A stretch of 64,000 nucleotides of DNA from a virus: positions 32,001 through 96,000 of the IMG/VR virus record IMGVR_UViG_3300020202_000062. One strand, written 5' to 3'. The translations under genes and the position numbers were made by a program. This document shows, one piece after another, positions 9,261 to 14,621 of the stretch (the stretch's first letter is position 1; each line of letters opens with the position of its first letter). Under the pieces are notes generated by a model. It made no database searches. It saw nothing but the letters and a program-made list of their open reading frames with translations, and had not been told where the DNA came from.

Positions 9261-9465
9261 AGTAGAATAGGATAGGTATGTCTGCTAGAATCCATGTTTT
9301 CTGTAAGAAGCATAGCTGTTATATCGTTACCCATGAAGGACAGTTGAACATCAAACATCCGTTTGACCTACAGGACAGACGAGATATGTGGTGTCCTTAC
9401 TCTACCGAAAAGAACATGTGCGCCAACGATCCAAACGATTGGCGATTCATAATTACATAGATCAA

Positions 9466-9540
9466 GGTCCAGTGGTGAACTGGCGTATATCACACTAGTC
9501 TGTCGAACTAGAGTAGGGGGATCGATACCCCTCTGGACCG
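9466..9540 (+). tRNA. tRNA-Asp(GUC)
   Basis: CTAGT-CTGTCGA-ACTAG; acceptor GGTCCAG/CTGGACC; atypical T-loop ATCGATA. Confidence 0.85.
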
Positions 9541-9604
9541 CTTGGTATTGGAAGCATTAAGCGTCTTCCGACTCGAAACGGAATCTTATCCAATACCATA
9601 TCAA

Positions 9605-9679
9605 GCGGGTGTATCTCGGCGGTTAGAGCAACTGAATTTTAATCAGTTGGTCGGGGGTTCAAATCCCTTACGTATCGCG
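9605..9679 (+). tRNA. tRNA-Lys(UUU), degenerate acceptor/D stems (possible pseudo-tRNA)
   Basis: ACTGA-ATTTTAA-TCAGT; T arm GGGGG-TTCAAAT-CCCTT; acceptor stem imperfect. Confidence 0.6.
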
Positions 9680-9809
9680 CGAGGTGGCTTATGTTTATGA
9701 GAAACTTACGAATGTGGTTTTATGAAACTCTCATAGTTTGGGCATTCAAGAAACTTGGCTCTGATCAGTACATAAACTACAAAGAAAAAGTAAAGATCAC
9801 TAAAATCTA

Positions 9810-9885
9810 GCACGTGTAGCTCAGTGGCTAGAGCAGACGGCTCTTAACCGTAAGGTCGCGGGTTCGAATCCCTCCACGTGTACCA
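9810..9885 (+). tRNA. tRNA-Lys(CUU)
   Basis: Loop CTCTTAA; acceptor GCACGTG/CACGTGT; ends ACCA. Confidence 0.9.
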
Positions 9886-9901
9886 AAAGAACAGGAAAAC
9901 C

Positions 9902-10420
9902 ATGTCGCAACTATACGATCCCACAAGAATCGACCTGAAATTAGATCCGTTCGAGATGCGGATGACAGGTACAGCAAGGCACGGAATGGTGCCCTTCGAT
10001 GTACCTTACATCTCAGAGATCGCAGACAATCTATTCCAGGGCGGATGTGCTAACGATCTACTACTGCCTGAGAACATCAAGCATGTAGTGTCGCTGTACA
10101 AATGGGAAGCATATTCCTGCGAACATGAGTTAGATTCTGTAACTGTCGTTACTATGTACGATTCAACGTCCACACCAATCAATAGAGATCAGGTTGTGGC
10201 ACTGGCAAACTGGGTGAATGTCTGTCGTAAGACTGGACCTACCTTAGTTCATTGTCAGGCTGGTTTGAATAGGTCTTCTTTGGTCGCGGCGCTTGCCCTG
10301 ATCTTGGGGGATGGTTTGACTCCTGAGGAAGCAATTGCTACCCTCAAGGAGAGGAGATCACCTGCTTGCTTATGCAATCATGTGTTCACTGAATGGCTAC
10401 TTGAAGAGAAGTATAAGTAG
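9902..10420 (+). CDS. Dual-specificity protein/polynucleotide phosphatase
   Basis: CX5R motif 'VHCQAGLNRS'; start moved to ATG 9902 because the track start lies inside the tRNA. Confidence 0.88.
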   Translation: MSQLYDPTRIDLKLDPFEMRMTGTARHGMVPFDVPYISEIADNLFQGGCANDLLLPENIKHVVSLYKWEAYSCEHELDSVTVVTMYDSTSTPINRDQVVALANWVNVCRKTGPTLVHCQAGLNRSSLVAALALILGDGLTPEEAIATLKERRSPACLCNHVFTEWLLEEKYK

Positions 10421-10427
10421 TCAACAC

Positions 10428-10501
10428 GGGCTTGTAGTTCCAATTGGCAGAACAGCTCCTTTGCACGGAGAAGGTTGGGGGTTCGAATCCCCCCTGGTCC
10501 A
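10428..10501 (+). tRNA. tRNA-Ala(UGC)
   Basis: Loop TTTGCAC; G3:U70 identity pair; A73. Confidence 0.88.
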
Positions 10502-10565
10502 CGGGGTAGTAGTCGATGAAAGCAGAGCGTACGGCTGCATGAGGTTGCTATACCCAGTATTTCTT

Positions 10566-10621
10566 GGGCTAGTCGCATTGGTAAATACTAGTTGTTGCGG
10601 GTTCGAATCCCGTCTAGTCCA
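10566..10621 (+). ncRNA. Minimal tRNA-Ala-like RNA (acceptor stem + T arm, no D/anticodon cloverleaf)
   Basis: GGGCTAG/CTAGTCC with G3:U70 and A73; GCGGG-TTCGAAT-CCCGT; only 24 nt between acceptor 5' strand and T stem. Confidence 0.7.
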
Positions 10622-10622
10622 C

Positions 10623-10765
10623 TGTGGTGCCTTTAGGTTGGAGTCACACAAGATTAACCGAAGCACAATTGCATGGTAAAGTGACCTGTAAATCATGCAG
10701 CCACACAATACGGGTCGATAAAGTTGCGGCTGAGATCGACAGTTGGCGGAGTCCGCAAAACTCAC
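10623..10765 (+). ncRNA. Putative structured RNA (kissing-loop junction plus pseudoknot)
   Basis: Several complementary segments between tRNA genes (see findings). Confidence 0.45.
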
Positions 10766-10777
10766 GGTCAACAACAT

Positions 10778-10849
10778 GGTCTATTCGTCTAGTGGTTAAG
10801 ACGCCAGATTCTCAATCTGGAAACGGGGTTTCGACTACCCCATAGACTG
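10778..10849 (+). tRNA. tRNA-Glu(CUC)
   Basis: CCAGA-TTCTCAA-TCTGG; acceptor GGTCTAT/ATAGACT. Confidence 0.88.
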
Positions 10850-11106
10850 CTTATGGAAGAATATGAATGCGATCAAGAATGTGCCGTCCACTTTGATGGG
10901 TGTGACGGCTTTTGTGATCATCTCGACGGTCACGTAAACGGATGCTGGAGAAAAAGTGACTAAGGGTACTGGCAACAAGACAGAGATGTCGATAAACTGG
11001 GACTACTCAGAAAAAGCAAAGCGATGCCCAAAGGCATACAAGATCGTGAAGGGTCAATACCTTCGCGGTGGCCGCGGGGTAAAGAACATCTTCGGAAAGT
11101 AATACA

Positions 11107-11895
11107 ATGCGAATCATGATGGCAGGCGACACACATAGCAACTTTGAGCAGTGGGAGTACCTATTCCCCATCGCTAAGGACCTTAACGTTGATGTCATCA
11201 TGCAACTCGGAGACTTTGGATACTGGGCGCACACCAAGGGTGGACTTAACCACCTTGATGCTCTACACGATCTTGCTGTAGAGTACGATATCCCAATCTA
11301 CTGGCTGGATGGCAACCACGAGAACCATGTGCACCTACGGGTGAACAGGATCGCAGTATGGAATATGTTCTGTCTTATGGCAGGCGTAGATCCTGGGCCA
11401 TTCGTCCCGATCCGCGGCACGCATATTGTGCACACGCCGCGGGGTGCAACCTGGGAGTGGGACGGCGTTAAGTTCCTAGCAGTTGGCGGTGCGTTCAGTA
11501 TCGACAGAGGCTGGAGAGATGTTGGGGAGTCCTTCTGGTTTGAAGAGGAACTCACTGACGCTGAAGCAGACTATGCTTCTAGAGTTGGGAAGGTCGATGT
11601 GCTGGTGTCACACGACGTTCCGATGGGCACGGATATGGCGTACATGTTCATCCGACAGGGTAGGTCGTACAGACCTATTCCGCAGGCTGAACCTAACCGC
11701 CGACGCTTGAGGCAGGTGGTCGAGGCCACGAAGCCTAACTACATATACCATGGCCATTACCATATCTGCTATAAGAACTACCTCGAACTTAATAGCGGAC
11801 ACACCATTGTCGTCATGGGCCTCGGTGCTGATGGGATGGAACAGGATTCCTGGACTATTCTTGACACTGAGGACTTGACAAATCCGGTTGGATAG
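11107..11895 (+). CDS. Calcineurin-like metallophosphoesterase
   Basis: GDTH, LGDFG, DGNHEN, SHD, HGHYH motifs. Confidence 0.92.
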   Translation: MRIMMAGDTHSNFEQWEYLFPIAKDLNVDVIMQLGDFGYWAHTKGGLNHLDALHDLAVEYDIPIYWLDGNHENHVHLRVNRIAVWNMFCLMAGVDPGPFVPIRGTHIVHTPRGATWEWDGVKFLAVGGAFSIDRGWRDVGESFWFEEELTDAEADYASRVGKVDVLVSHDVPMGTDMAYMFIRQGRSYRPIPQAEPNRRRLRQVVEATKPNYIYHGHYHICYKNYLELNSGHTIVVMGLGADGMEQDSWTILDTEDLTNPVG

Positions 11896-11903
11896 TTTAC
11901 TAT
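11875..11903 (+). promoter_or_regulatory. Consensus housekeeping-sigma promoter for the Pth2-like operon
   Basis: TTGACA-N17-TACTAT. Confidence 0.8.
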
Positions 11904-11935
11904 CAATAGACCGATGAGAAAAGGAAACACAAGAA

Positions 11936-12277
11936 ATGGAAAACACGTAGATTTCTAAACTGTATGTCATCACAAGATCAGACTTCAGTTGCGGCTATCA
12001 AGTAGCACAGTCTGTTCACGGTGGCATGGCATGGGCTATGGAAAAGTCCCATTTGCTAGATGAATGGTCAGGGACTGTAGTCTGTGTAACAGTAGAGTCT
12101 GAAGCCGATCTATATTGGTGGGCTTCTGAACTCGAATTACGTGGTCAAGAGGTATCCATTTTTAGAGAGCCAGACATTGGTGATCAACTAAGTTGCATTG
12201 CTGTTCTTCTGAATCAGGAGCAGGCACAGTGGCTTTGTAGGTTGCCCTTGGCTGGCTCTTGTGGTTTACCACCATAG
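11936..12277 (+). CDS. Pth2-like peptidyl-tRNA hydrolase domain protein with in-frame TAG at codon 5
   Basis: AAGGA at 11921, then ATG GAA AAC ACG TAG ATT TCT AAA CTG TAT GTC ATC ACA AGA TCA GAC. The Pth2-like N-terminal motif 'KLYVITRSD...YQVAQSVH' lies upstream of the track's ATG at 12026; 'FREPDIGDQLSCIA' at the C-terminus. Confidence 0.75.
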
Positions 12278-12303
12278 GTATCGTCTCCGAAAGGAGGTGA
12301 TAC
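12278..12303 (+). promoter_or_regulatory. RBS-sequestering hairpin
   Basis: GTATCGTCTCC-GAAA-GGAGGTGATAC, 11 bp; 3' arm contains the SD GGAGGTG of the gene at 12307. Confidence 0.85.
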
Positions 12304-12306
12304 AGT

Positions 12307-12600
12307 ATGACTGAAATGGAACTTAAGGCTGAAGTAGCATCACTCCGAAATGAGTTAGCAACACTTCGTGACCTGATTGCAGGCGGCGATCTAGCGTCTG
12401 GCGTAAACCGCCTAGCACAAAAGATCGAACGTCAGCGTCAGGCTCTTGATAGACTGCACACCCGTGTGGTCAATCAGCGTTTCCACCTTCGCACTCTCGA
12501 TGAGTTAGGCCGCGGTCTAACCAAGGATGAGTACGAAACGGCTCGTGCAGCAGTGACTAACGAGCAGGTTAAGGATCGTCTAGTAGGCGTCATCGCTTAA
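12307..12600 (+). CDS. Helical hypothetical protein coupled to the Pth2-like gene
   Basis: 97 aa, coiled-coil-like, strong SD inside the hairpin. Confidence 0.75.
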   Translation: MTEMELKAEVASLRNELATLRDLIAGGDLASGVNRLAQKIERQRQALDRLHTRVVNQRFHLRTLDELGRGLTKDEYETARAAVTNEQVKDRLVGVIA

Positions 12601-12662
12601 CCAATAGTGCCAGGTCAGACAGATCTAACGTAAAGTCGAGAATTGTAACTGCTGGCACTCTC

Positions 12663-12762
12663 GCCCCGGTAGCTTAACGGTAAAGCAGCGGATAAAGAGA
12701 CTCAGTATCTCACGGTTTGGGTCTCTCCGTCGATGGTGGTTCGAATCCACCCTGGGGCACCA
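12663..12762 (+). ncRNA. tRNA-like RNA with extended anticodon arm
   Basis: Normal acceptor, D and T arms, ends ACCA; 33 nt with an extra 9-bp hairpin in place of the 7-nt anticodon loop. Confidence 0.75.
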
Positions 12763-12763
12763 T

Positions 12764-12831
12764 GGAAGAAATAGTGTAACCCGGTAGCACAGGCGACGGC
12801 CAGGCGAGGTTCGAATCCTCATCTTCCACCA
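12764..12831 (+). ncRNA. tRNA-like RNA with truncated anticodon arm
   Basis: GGAAGA/TCTTCC-ACCA; D arm GTGT/GCAC; T arm GAGG-TTCGAAT-CCTC; anticodon arm reduced to GGC-GACG-GCC. Confidence 0.7.
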
Positions 12832-12832
12832 C

Positions 12833-12939
12833 GCCCCGATAGCTTAGTGGGAAAGCCTCTTTCTGGATCCTGTGAGGCTAGCAGGGAAAGGTTAGAGTAG
12901 CGCGCAAACACGGAGGTTCGATTCCTCCTCGGGGTACCA
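12833..12939 (+). ncRNA. tRNA-like RNA with 55-nt replacement of anticodon/variable region
   Basis: GCCCCGA/TCGGGGT-ACCA; D arm GCTT/AAGC; T arm GGAGG-TTCGATT-CCTCC. Confidence 0.72.
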
Positions 12940-12940
12940 A

Positions 12941-13082
12941 GAGCCTGTAGTGCACGCCGAAGCGTGACGTAACATGAGTAGCCATACGAATCCTAGGCCA
13001 CCCTTATGGCGAGGGGTGTTACGGTAGTGGGAGCACGACCGCCAGAAAGCGGTTAGGATGGGTTCGAATCCCATCAGGTTCA
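12941..13082 (+). ncRNA. tRNA-like RNA with ~79-nt structured D-loop and 6-nt anticodon loop
   Basis: GAGCCTG/CAGGTTC-A; D stem GTGC(12950)/GCAC(13033); ACCGC-CAGAAA-GCGGT; ATGGG-TTCGAAT-CCCAT. Confidence 0.7.
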
Positions 13083-13597
13083 CATGAAAACTAAAATAGA
13101 CAGAGACCTTTTATCAGAGTTAACAACCAGTACAGAACTTGAAGGCTGGACAGTGCTTCAGGATAAACACCTTCGCAACAAGAGGTGGACTGAACAGCGG
13201 CGCATCGTCCTAACCAATCCAGAGTTCCCTGGCATATGGGCTTTCGATTATGAAATTGGACTTACCGAGATGCAGGACTTCTCTTGGTATGACCACTACC
13301 CAGAAGAGATAGAGTTGTTCCAGGTTGTACCTAGAACAGAAACGGTAATGGTGTATGAAAAAGCCCCTGTGGAAGAGCACGATAGTAATCTGGACTGAGT
13401 TCGATCCATACGATACAGAGATCGACACTCTAGCGTGGCACGCAATGGAAGGCGACGGGTATTGTTCGCGCCACATTGCAGATCACATAGCAGATCCAGA
13501 GTCAGATCCCGATTGGGATGGAACAGAATTCTTCTGGGATCCAGAAGAGTAAGGCTTGAGGTAGGGTGTTCGGGTGTGTGCGCCCTGCCTCAAATTT

Positions 13598-13669
13598 GCT
13601 TCGGTAGTTCAATGGTAGAACAGCGCCCTCTAAAAGCGTATGTTGAGGGTTCGAATCCCTTCCGAGGCG
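13598..13669 (+). tRNA. Amber suppressor tRNA (anticodon CUA)
   Basis: Acceptor GCTTCGG/CCGAGGC; D arm GTTC/GAAC; loop CTCTAAA (CTA at 13630-13632); T arm GAGGG-TTCGAAT-CCCTT. Confidence 0.88.
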
Positions 13670-13674
13670 CTCAA

Positions 13675-13858
13675 GATCACGTAGCTCAGGTGGATAGAGC
13701 AGCGCAAAAACGGAGGCGTGGTATCTAGAGAAGGTTTGCGGATGCACCGGGACCGGGCCGCATGCAGTAATGTATGTGGTTGGGGAACCTTAGCCCCCGG
13801 CAGGGAAGCGCGTTATCCTAACTCTAGCGTTGCGGAGGTTCGAGTCCTCCCGTGATCA
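13675..13858 (+). ncRNA. tRNA-like RNA with ~121-nt insert in the anticodon arm
   Basis: Perfect GATCACG/CGTGATC-A; D arm GCTC/GAGC; T arm GGAGG-TTCGAGT-CCTCC; GCGC/GCGT stem closes the insert. Confidence 0.72.
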
Positions 13859-14548
13859 CATGAAAACATATCAAGATATATTCGAAAGCATTGTCGCATT
13901 ACTTGATGCTCCTGTTACAGATGACCCGGTGGACATTCTCAAGTTAATCGCGGCAGAGTGTGAATATCCAGGTGAGTACACCTACTTTGATAACAAGGGT
14001 CAGTGGGTAAGATACCCTATAGAAGGCGAGTAAAATGAATTTAGTTACCTGCACATGCGGTAATGATCAGATCATAATCGTAACTCCCGCAGTTCATAAG
14101 TCTAGCGAAGAGATTGAAATCGTAGACAACGGATATCAAGCCTGGAACAGTGACTCTAGTTGGGAAATATCTGACGAAGACGGAGCAAGGTTTGTTTGCG
14201 AAGAATGCGACCATTCTTGGAAAGTTGATCGTCCAGTTACTTGGGAGTGGATTAACTAGATGAGTATGTCTACTAGAGTAGAAGCCTACAAAGATCCAGA
14301 AGACGAGAAGTACATACAGTACAAAGCCATCTGGGATGCATGTAGAGAAGCATACGTTCAGGTCCCTGATGAAGTGATGAGTTACTTCGGATATGAAACA
14401 CCTGATGAGCATGGTGTAAGGGTGAACTTAAAGCATGAGAAATTCTCTGATCGTGATTCGGTAAGTGATGGTATTATCATCAAGGTAGCAGACATACCTA
14501 AAGATGTAACTGTCATTAGGTTTGTGAACAGTTACTAATTAGTGACAA

Positions 14549-14621
<73 letters not shown>

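What the first reader, a model, noticed from the sequence alone, without database searches (positions are those of the whole stretch)
11875..12600. Candidate amber-readthrough-gated switch: Pth2-like gene bracketed by two TAG codons controls a downstream gene through an SD-hiding hairpin
Seen: a consensus promoter (TTGACA-17-TACTAT), AAGGA 10 nt upstream of ATG 11936, then ATG GAA AAC ACG TAG. After the TAG (11948-11950) the same frame continues as ISKLYVITRSDFSCGYQVAQSVH. This matches the N-terminal Pth2 motif (K.V.V.R.D....G...AQ..H), so the track's start at 12026 would lose the conserved core, and there is no ATG/GTG/TTG between the TAG and the motif. The ORF ends in a second TAG (12275-12277). 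The very next base starts an 11-bp GAAA-loop hairpin (12278-12303) that buries the GGAGGTG SD of gene 12307. Reading through that second TAG gives 10 more codons ending in a TGA that overlaps the ATG of 12307 (ATGA). Inference: the hydrolase and its helical partner are made only when UAG termination fails, for example through the phage's own CUA tRNA 1.3 kb away or RF1 depletion/inactivation. This would be a translational sensor of stop-codon status whose output, a peptidyl-tRNA hydrolase, could handle stalled or dropped-off peptidyl-tRNA.
Basis: partly seen in the sequence, partly recalled or inferred. Interest (0 to 1): 0.92.

Follow-up and report, generated by a model that had tools for sequence, protein, structure and literature searches.

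The report
Suppressor-tRNA-gated phage Pth2-like operon
A phage with the normal genetic code keeps a UAG stop as the fifth codon of a small tRNA-hydrolase-like gene and carries its own UAG-reading tRNA nearby, so the enzyme, and a coupled downstream gene, are probably made only when that tRNA overrides the stop; about 110 other phage loci share this design.

Summary
These are a promoter-like site, SD-ATG, TAG at codon 5, a Pth2-like frame with no start codon after the TAG, a terminal TAG, an 11-bp GAAA hairpin over the next gene's SD, an ATGA overlap, and tRNA-CUA 1.3 kb downstream.

The TAG is not an error. An independent assembly is identical, and the closest relative (58% identity) has ATG GAA CAC GAG TAG ATT.

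The genome is not recoded: 37 of 145 long ORFs end in TAG.

Of 150 non-redundant homologous loci, 113 have a start, up to 10 codons, then an in-frame stop just before the conserved KLYVITR motif. Where a suppressor tRNA lies in the held flank, its anticodon always matches the stop:
- TAG/CUA: 74 loci
- TAA/UUA: 3 loci
- TGA/UCA: 3 loci
- mismatches: 0

Four homologs also carry a TAG inside the domain. This supports suppressor-dependent translation.

The helical partner gene, the SD-hiding hairpin and (in 3 of 4 close relatives) the terminal TAG are conserved in this sub-clade. Whether the second TAG must be read through is not shown.

The enzyme's role is inferred. It has the Pth2 fold, and elsewhere it is fused to a tRNA-nucleotidyltransferase-like domain.

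I found no publication describing this. This scan has reported the same module on other DNA, in at least 110 genomes.

The parts
11875..11903 (+). sigma-70-like promoter TTGACA-17-TACTAT
   Evidence: 10 of 12 matches. Relatives also have a TTGAC(A/G)-17-TAnnnT site just upstream of their leaders. Function not tested.
11921..11925 (+). Shine-Dalgarno AAGGA, 10 nt before ATG 11936
   Evidence: It is placed to serve ATG 11936, not ATT 11951, which lies 25 nt away.
11936..11950 (+). leader ATG GAA AAC ACG followed by the gating TAG (11948-11950) as codon 5
   Evidence: The same layout is found in 113 of 150 homologous loci. The closest relative L189 has ATG GAA CAC GAG TAG ATT. The base after the stop is A, as in 39 of 56 gated loci.
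11951..12274 (+). Pth2-fold hydrolase-like domain (108 codons after the TAG)
   Evidence: phrog_1866, E 1.1e-8. Family profile against solved Pth2 2zv3, E 1.9e-9. AlphaFold2 pLDDT 95.1. Foldseek TM 0.72-0.77 to 2zv3, 3erj and 1q7s.
12275..12277 (+). terminal TAG, a second suppressible stop
   Evidence: It is shared with relatives L189 and L191. L183, L192 and L195 run on to a TGA that overlaps the partner's ATG.
12278..12303 (+). 11-bp hairpin with GAAA loop; its 3' arm holds the SD GGAGGTG (12293-12299) of gene 12307
   Evidence: Analogous SD-hiding hairpins occur in L183 (z -3.1), L189 (z -4.8) and L191 (z -2.5).
12278..12310 (+). read-through tail of 10 codons ending in a TGA that overlaps ATG 12307 (ATGA)
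   Evidence: It corresponds to the normal C-terminal tail of L183, L192 and L195, whose ORFs end in the same ATGA overlap.
12307..12600 (+). 97-aa helical, arginine-rich partner gene, probably translationally coupled
   Evidence: Homologs at 51-67% identity. In every context with DNA they lie directly behind a TAG-gated Pth2-like gene. No Pfam or PHROG family.
13598..13670 (+). amber suppressor tRNA, anticodon CUA, same strand
   Evidence: ARAGORN. Rfam tRNA 63.7 bits. It is the only suppressor among the 26 tRNAs of the contig.

Best explanation
This is a self-contained amber-suppression operon.

Proposed mechanism:
1. Ribosomes start at SD-ATG 11936 and meet UAG at codon 5.
2. With host RF1 alone they release the tetrapeptide MENT, and no enzyme is made.
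3. When the phage's own tRNA-CUA is expressed and charged, it inserts a residue at the UAG and the full Pth2-fold protein is made. The leader UAG therefore makes enzyme output depend on the suppressor's activity.
4. Ribosomes that reach the 3' end of the ORF open the hairpin that hides the SD of gene 12307, either by stopping at TAG 12275 or by reading on to the ATGA overlap. The helical partner is thus made only downstream of the same gate.

Shown:
- the anatomy;
- the Pth2 fold;
- family-wide conservation of the early stop;
- co-variation of stop type with the neighbouring tRNA's anticodon;
- conservation of the partner and of the SD-hiding hairpin in the sub-clade.

Inferred: that suppression happens in vivo, and what the enzyme does. 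My best guess, at about 40%, is a tRNA 3'-end esterase. It would recycle peptidyl- or N-blocked aminoacyl-tRNA produced as a by-product of read-through, perhaps including the suppressor itself. A negative feedback on the suppressor is the main alternative.
For: Not an error:
- An independent assembly is identical across both TAGs.
- Five relatives with 34-58% identical enzymes keep ATG + 3 codons + TAG + a codon starting with a purine.

Not a recoded genome:
- 145 long ORFs are intact under code 11, and 37 of them end in TAG.
- In TAG-gated loci, 13% of neighbouring long ORFs end in TAG.

Family pattern in 150 non-redundant loci:
- 103 are TAG-gated, 5 TAA-gated and 5 TGA-gated.
- A suppressor tRNA lies in the held flank of 74, 3 and 3 of these, and it is always the cognate one.
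- With at least 2 kb of flank on both sides the counts are 49/55, 2/3 and 2/2.
- The switches to TAA and TGA lie in several lineages that are distant from each other.
- All 64 suppressor tRNAs of the first 85 loci are on the gene's strand.

Internal stops: extra TAGs lie inside the conserved domain in L010, L025, L036 and L075. L010's phage has two tandem tRNA-CUA genes as the only tRNAs in 49 kb.

Stop context: the base after the gating stop is A in 39, G in 15, C in 2 and T in 0 of 56 loci. The phage's true TAG terminators are followed by T in 21 of 37.

Terminal stop: TAG-gated genes end in TAG in only 4 of 103 cases, against a 13% background (p 0.003).

Fold.

Coupling.

tRNA link: in other phages the domain is fused to, or sits beside, a protein that is usually also amber-gated (41% identity, E 3e-45). 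Its model resembles the tRNA-binding half of a class II tRNA nucleotidyltransferase, 3wfq/3wfr, TM 0.56-0.66.
Against: - Nothing here is experimental. Expression, charging and amino-acid identity of the tRNA are unknown.
- 26% of this phage's long ORFs end in TAG, so a strong suppressor would be costly.
- The codon after the TAG is ATT, a known weak start codon, so some termination-reinitiation cannot be excluded for this locus.
- 29 of 103 TAG-gated loci show no CUA tRNA in the held flank. Most of these are short contigs, but 6 of the 55 with at least 2 kb of flank also lack one.
- The window's own terminal TAG runs against the family trend.
- The window protein alone gets no Pfam hit.
- In the HMM alignment, the lysine of Pth2's GKGK motif aligns with Tyr of GYQ, so hydrolase chemistry is not assured.
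Confidence: 0.75

Rival explanations
1. Termination-reinitiation. The five-codon leader is a small upstream ORF, and ribosomes restart at AUU 11951 (GUG in mycobacteriophages) without any suppression.
For: ATT follows the stop in 23 of 56 gated loci, and GTG follows it in cluster C mycobacteriophages. AUU is a known weak start codon (own knowledge, infC).
Against: The stop type tracks the neighbouring tRNA's anticodon. Four homologs have TAGs inside the domain. Many loci have ACA, AAC, AGC, AGA or GTA after the stop.
Confidence: 0.08
2. Partial genome recoding. The phage is on the way to code 15, and this is simply one of several genes timed by TAG read-through, with no special tie to the hydrolase.
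For: Phage suppressor tRNAs and TAG recoding of late genes are described (bioRxiv 10.1101/2021.08.26.457843). A few neighbouring genes are also gated in other phages.
Against: My scan of the contig found no other convincing TAG-interrupted gene. TAG ends 37 of 145 long ORFs. The association is specific to this family: in 20 of the 23 loci that hold a single tRNA, that tRNA is the suppressor.
Confidence: 0.07
3. The module acts against a host defence. The hydrolase strips blocking groups (for example N-acetyl) or peptides from tRNAs attacked by host toxins, and the suppressor tRNA serves only as a timer.
For: Pth detoxifies tRNA acetylated by TacT (abstract of PMC9241777, listed). The enzyme lies in tRNA-rich regions and is fused to a tRNA-binding-like domain.
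Against: No defence or toxin context was seen. This reading does not explain why the companion tRNA is always a suppressor.
Confidence: 0.1
4. A broken gene or a sequencing error.
For: Gene callers give a 79-aa stump or no gene at all.
Against: An independent assembly is identical. The stop is conserved at the same place in 113 of 150 loci. The model is intact at pLDDT 95.
Confidence: 0.01

Closest known systems
Archaeal/eukaryotic peptidyl-tRNA hydrolase 2 (Pth2, PF01981; PDB 2zv3, 3erj, 1wn2, 1q7s Bit1)
   Same: Same alpha/beta fold (TM 0.72-0.77). The profile matches at E 1.9e-9. The K-x-V-x-V-x-R ... Q-x-x-H N-terminal motif is shared.
   Different: The DAG-x-T loop is replaced by an invariant E-P-D-I-G-x-Q and is four residues shorter. 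The GKGK lysine aligns with Tyr. The window protein does not reach any Pfam hit on its own. The genes are phage-borne, tied to a suppressor tRNA, and gated by a stop.
Stop-codon-recoded phages with suppressor tRNAs (TAG read as Gln, 'code 15'; bioRxiv 10.1101/2021.08.26.457843)
   Same: A phage-encoded suppressor tRNA and in-frame stops used to time gene expression.
   Different: Here the genome keeps the standard code, with TAG ending 26% of long ORFs. The in-frame stop is confined to one small operon next to the tRNA. It sits at codons 2-10, and TAA or TGA versions occur with matching tRNAs.
prfB (RF2) autoregulation through an in-frame UGA (own knowledge)
   Same: A translation-related gene senses how a stop codon is being decoded through an early in-frame stop in its own mRNA.
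   Different: No frameshift is involved. The read-out is tRNA suppression, not release-factor shortage. Whether the product feeds back on decoding is unknown.
Phage lambda bar minigenes and host Pth (own knowledge)
   Same: An SD-ATG followed by one to a few codons and a stop; a link to peptidyl-tRNA hydrolase biology.
   Different: Here the mini-ORF is in frame with, and directly abuts, the hydrolase gene. Its stop matches a phage tRNA.
Translational coupling by an SD-sequestering hairpin or ATGA overlap (own knowledge)
   Same: The downstream SD is paired with the 3' end of the upstream ORF, and the stop and start overlap in relatives.
   Different: The upstream ORF is itself gated by suppression, so the gate is passed on to the second gene.

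Membership tests
Pth2 (PF01981) | Pth2 alpha/beta fold | tested here: met
   AlphaFold2 pLDDT 95.1. Foldseek probability 1.00, TM 0.72-0.77 to 2zv3, 3erj, 1wn2 and 1q7s.
Pth2 (PF01981) | Sequence match to the family model | tested here: inconclusive
   The window protein has no Pfam hit, even at E 10. The family profile hits solved Pth2 at E 1.9e-9. Members L054 (45.8 bits) and L015 (25.3 bits) pass the cut-off of 23.
Pth2 (PF01981) | Catalytic residues: Lys of GKGK and Asp of DAG (from memory of the S. solfataricus work, not checked in a paper here) | tested here: inconclusive
   Q20 and H23 are invariant. An invariant acidic E-P-D stands in place of DAG. The lysine position holds Tyr.
Pth2 (PF01981) | Hydrolysis of peptidyl-tRNA | not testable with these tools
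   Needs an enzyme assay.
   ATG + 3 codons + TAG, two codons before K.
   tRNA-CUA starts 1.3 kb downstream, on the + strand.
   TAG-A. Across the family, 54 of 56 have a purine there.
   The window gene ends in TAG, as do L189 and L191. Across the family this is 4 of 103.
Genome-wide TAG recoding (code 15) | Many genes interrupted by TAG; low coding density under code 11; TAG rare as a terminator | tested here: not met
   87% of the contig is covered by long ORFs under code 11, and 37 of 145 end in TAG.
Translational coupling through SD sequestration | The downstream SD is paired with the end of the upstream ORF, and the structure is an outlier | tested here: met
   Dependence of gene 12307 on upstream translation is not testable here.

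The most novel reading that the evidence does not exclude
The cassette is a closed regulatory loop. The UAG in the leader measures how well the phage's suppressor tRNA competes with RF1. The Pth2-like enzyme, made in proportion to that, acts on the suppressor's own acylated or peptidyl form, or on the debris of read-through, and so sets the level of stop-codon override. This would be a portable, self-tuning 'stop-codon override' unit that standard-code phages carry, and a possible stepping stone to full recoding.
Probability: 0.2. Interest if true: 0.9.

Novelty: new variant of a known kind. Interest (0 to 1): 0.8.

Why it matters
Phages that use the standard code often carry suppressor tRNAs with no known target. 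The XacN1 authors searched for targets and found none (PMC5852040).

This locus and its roughly 110 relatives name a dedicated target: a Pth2-like gene, and sometimes its neighbours, locked by the very stop that the tRNA reads.

Practical consequences:
- Annotation can be corrected. Gene callers truncate or miss these genes, and the GTG start annotated in cluster C mycobacteriophages is preceded by (A/G)TG-TAG.
- It is a natural two-part translational switch.
- Cultured mycobacteriophages offer a tractable system to test how phages manipulate termination.

Tried and rejected
- Global TAG recoding: rejected.
- Other TAG-interrupted genes in this contig. A codon-usage scan discriminated poorly. 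The candidates I inspected lie in a tRNA-like element (13770-14033) or beside an ordinary small zinc-ribbon gene (35404).
- Conserved RNA structure around the first TAG: none, z 0.1.
- Common origin of the suppressor tRNAs: rejected. They are very diverse, and nearest-isotype matching gives no consistent identity.
- BLAST of the partner against the first 85 loci found nothing. This was overturned by a homolog search and contig look-ups.
- Complex prediction for the Pth2-like protein with the partner gave no answer. This is evidence neither for nor against binding.
- The Atlas search for the partner gave only generic helical hits.
- Two genome-contig scans found nothing.
- No HD-like partner was found in the held contig, which CheckV estimates at 75% complete.
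- Five literature searches plus reading of six papers found no description of the gated module.
Full report
**Observation.**

The window is bases 32001-96000 of a 158,928-bp phage contig (GC 0.48; CheckV completeness 75%).
- a TTGACA-17-TACTAT site at 11875-11903, the best of four promoter-like sites in 11000-14000;
- AAGGA 10 nt before ATG 11936;
- ATG GAA AAC ACG TAG ATT TCT AAA, in frame with the later ATG 12026, with no ATG/GTG/TTG between;
- a terminal TAG at 12275-12277;
- an 11-bp hairpin with a GAAA loop at 12278-12303, whose 3' arm is the SD GGAGGTG of gene 12307;
- ten further codons that end in a TGA overlapping ATG 12307.

ARAGORN finds tRNA-CUA at 13598-13670, and Rfam scores it 63.7 bits as a tRNA.

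The hairpin region folds at -21.1 kcal/mol, z -2.8. The start region of 12307 is the fourth most structured of 89 SD-bearing starts in the genome.

An independent assembly (a 235,865-bp contig from another sample set) is identical to the window over 9307-14596. Two short contigs from other runs are identical over the terminal TAG and the hairpin. The TAGs are therefore not sequencing errors.

**The genome is not recoded.**

Under code 11 the contig is 87% covered by 145 non-overlapping long ORFs. They end in TAA 85 times, TAG 37 times and TGA 23 times. Genes of 700-1100 codons have no internal TAG.

**What the protein is.**

- The 108 codons after the TAG give no Pfam hit. They match phrog_1866 at E 1.1e-8 from residue 2, at profile position 8.
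- A profile of 13 homologs hits solved Pth2 structures: 2zv3 at E 1.9e-9, and also 1q7s, 1wn2 and 3erj.
- Some family members pass Pfam PF01981.
- The AlphaFold2 model has pLDDT 95.1 and superposes on Pth2 structures with TM 0.72-0.77.
- Residues 2-9 (SKLYVITR) form the first strand. R9, Q20 and H23 are invariant in 69 sequences.
- A product started at ATG 12026 (residue 26) would lack all of these.
- The active-site region differs from canonical Pth2. An invariant E-P-D-I-G-x-Q stands in place of DAG-x-T, and Tyr stands where the GKGK lysine aligns.

I therefore call it Pth2-like, not a proven peptidyl-tRNA hydrolase.

**Comparative test of the first TAG.**

I collected homologous loci from GenBank phages, IMG/VR and metagenomes. 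I located the conserved motif with an HMM and read upstream in frame.

Of 150 non-redundant loci:

| Class | Loci | Cognate suppressor tRNA in held flank |
|---|---|---|
| TAG-gated | 103 | 74 (CUA) |
| TAA-gated | 5 | 3 (UUA) |
| TGA-gated | 5 | 3 (UCA) |
| ambiguous (an ATG follows the stop) | 6 | – |
| ordinary start | 17 | – |
| domain in a longer ORF | 14 | – |

Here 'gated' means a start codon, at most 10 codons, then an in-frame stop no more than 12 codons before KLYVITR, with no ATG after it.

- There is no mismatch between stop and anticodon among the clearly gated loci.
- With at least 2 kb of flank on both sides the figures are 49/55, 2/3 and 2/2.
- If the loci were independent, a perfect match of 80 pairs would have a probability near 2e-10 (my arithmetic). 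They are not all independent. However, the TGA cases (L175, L180/L163, L098) and the TAA cases (L058/L059, L161, L094) lie in distant branches, which gives about five or six separate switches.
- Loci with an ordinary start or a fused domain also mostly sit beside a CUA tRNA, often 1-30 nt away.
- In 20 of the 23 loci that hold only one tRNA, that tRNA is the suppressor.
- All 64 suppressors of the first set are on the gene's strand.
- The suppressor sequences are very diverse. This is therefore not one recently spread cassette.

**Further support for read-through rather than reinitiation.**

- Four homologs carry an extra TAG inside the conserved domain: L010, L025, L036 and L075. The 735-kb phage behind L010 has two tandem tRNA-CUA genes 2.1 kb downstream, and they are the only tRNAs in 49 kb.
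- The base after the gating stop is A in 39, G in 15, C in 2 and T in 0 of 56 loci. A purine there is the classical good context for amber suppression (own knowledge). This phage's real TAG terminators are followed by T in 21 of 37 cases.
- Codons after the stop include ACA, AAC, AGC, AGA and GTA, which are not start-like.
- TAG-gated genes avoid TAG as their terminator: 4 of 103, against 13% for neighbouring long ORFs (p 0.003).

**The sub-clade of the window, and the second half of the claim.**

The 97-aa partner had no match among the first 85 loci. A homolog search then found relatives at 51-67% identity.

In every context for which DNA could be fetched, the partner lies directly behind a TAG-gated Pth2-like gene. 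Where the contig is long enough, a tRNA-CUA is close by:
- L183: two copies, 54 nt after the partner;
- L184: 56 nt after;
- L192: 223 nt after;
- L195: upstream.

Leaders in this sub-clade:

| Locus | Leader |
|---|---|
| window | ATG GAA AAC ACG TAG ATT |
| L189 | ATG GAA CAC GAG TAG ATT |
| L191 | ATG GAT CAC ACG TAG GTA |
| L183 | ATG ACC GAA CCA TAG GTT |
| L192 | ATG CGC CAG CAC TAG GTA |
| L195 | ATG CCG ATG ACC TAG GTA |

In L183, L192 and L195 the hydrolase ORF ends in a TGA that overlaps the partner's ATG. In the window, L189 and L191 it ends in TAG, and the read-through frame stops at a TGA 1, 8 and 5 nt from the first base of the partner's ATG.

The partner's SD is buried in a hairpin in four loci, and the stems differ in sequence:

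| Locus | z-score |
|---|---|
| window | -2.5 |
| L183 | -3.1 |
| L189 | -4.8 |
| L191 | -2.5 |

The hairpin is not significant in L192 or L195.

The operon (hydrolase, coupled partner, suppressor tRNA) and the SD-hiding hairpin are therefore conserved. The terminal TAG is a trait of the window's nearest kin.

A ribosome with TAG 12275 in its A site already covers 12278-12288 (own knowledge of the ribosomal footprint). Opening the hairpin therefore does not need the second read-through. Passing the first TAG is the condition for both proteins.

**Function.**

The tight, strand-matched pairing with a suppressor tRNA says the enzyme works with or because of that tRNA.

A second lead comes from neighbours:
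- In 10 TAG-gated loci a roughly 195-aa protein (phrog_14850, motif QHG...HDxGKP) lies just upstream. It usually has its own early TAG.
- In Xanthomonas and Stenotrophomonas jumbo phages, and in L080, it is fused to the N-terminus of the Pth2-like domain (41% identity, E 3e-45).
- Its model (pLDDT 95.4) best matches the tRNA-binding half of a class II tRNA nucleotidyltransferase (3wfq/3wfr, TM 0.56-0.66, Foldseek E about 1e-2), with weaker HD-domain hits.

This favours an enzyme that acts on tRNA 3' ends. The window's contig has no such gene in the part held.

I commit to a feed-forward reading: the enzyme is made in step with suppression, to recycle acylated or peptidyl-tRNA that read-through produces. 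A feedback on the suppressor is the main alternative. Neither has been tested.

**Prior knowledge.**

- PTH2-type genes in jumbo phages and in cluster C mycobacteriophage tRNA arrays are described (PMC7824862, PMC5966550).
- Suppressor tRNAs in recoded phages are described (bioRxiv 10.1101/2021.08.26.457843).
- The XacN1 paper states that targets of its CUA tRNAs could not be found (PMC5852040).
- I found no paper that links the two.
- This scan's own notes record the same module in at least 110 other genomes. I reached my reading before seeing them, and re-tested it here. One note led me to look for other gated neighbours.

**Caveats.**

- There is no expression, charging or peptide evidence.
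- TAG is a common terminator in this phage.
- ATT after the stop leaves room for some reinitiation.
- The complex prediction gave no answer.

Noticed in passing
window 12663-13082 and 13675-13858: tRNA-shaped elements with long inserts lie between the operon and the suppressor tRNA. Rfam tRNA hits at 12663-12759 (55.7 bits) and 12833-12936 (43.2 bits) are 97 and 104 nt long. 13675-13858 has perfect acceptor, D and T arms around an insert of about 120 nt. ARAGORN does not call any of them. Other first-reader notes cover them.
   Followed up: partly
L019:1930-2691, L104:4245-4988, L105, L108, L111, L118: An HNH + NUMOD3 homing endonuclease sits just upstream of the Pth2-like gene. Its ORF begins with a duplicated copy of the amber-gated leader and the first ~20 codons of the Pth2-like gene (M-T-TAG-INHKLIIITRRDLHPGYQAV...). 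The endonuclease appears to have taken over the gated start.
   Followed up: partly
L042:4384-4977, L132, L129, L123, L136, L137, L032; fused in L080:4461-5297 and in Xanthomonas phages Xoo-sp13 and XacN1: A second amber-gated family (phrog_14850; tRNA-nucleotidyltransferase-body-like or HD-like) lies next to, or is fused with, the Pth2-like domain. In L080 (M-N-L-A-TAG) and Xoo-sp13 (M-K-K-TAG) the fused gene also seems to start before an early TAG.
   Followed up: partly
L044:5345-5599, L046, L047, L048, L049, L051: An 84-aa protein of unknown family lies directly behind the Pth2-like gene and also starts M-K-TAG-I.
   Followed up: no
L001 (Myrna), L002, L012, L018 (IkeLoa): In cluster C mycobacteriophages the annotated GTG start of the 'peptidyl tRNA hydrolase' is preceded by (A/G)TG-TAG, 6-7 nt after a TTGACA-17-TAC(A/C)GT site. 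The mRNA may be leaderless and start with ATG/GTG-UAG. A tRNA-CUA follows 130-250 nt downstream.
   Followed up: partly
L186 (ENA ERZ27257313, contig of 235,865 bp): Another assembly carries this region on a 236-kb contig. The two sequences diverge at window 14597, near that contig's end. The 158,928-bp record is rated 75% complete, so the phage is probably larger than the record.
   Followed up: no
window 9878-10420 and 11107-11895: A dual-specificity phosphatase (DSPc, E 1.5e-11) and a calcineurin-like metallophosphoesterase (E 2.4e-10) lie just upstream, among the tRNA genes. The metallophosphoesterase also precedes the operon in a relative (context of P0007).
   Followed up: no
whole contig (G000): ARAGORN finds 26 tRNAs but none for Trp, Tyr, Phe or His. 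Some of the insert-bearing tRNA-like elements may stand for these.
   Followed up: no
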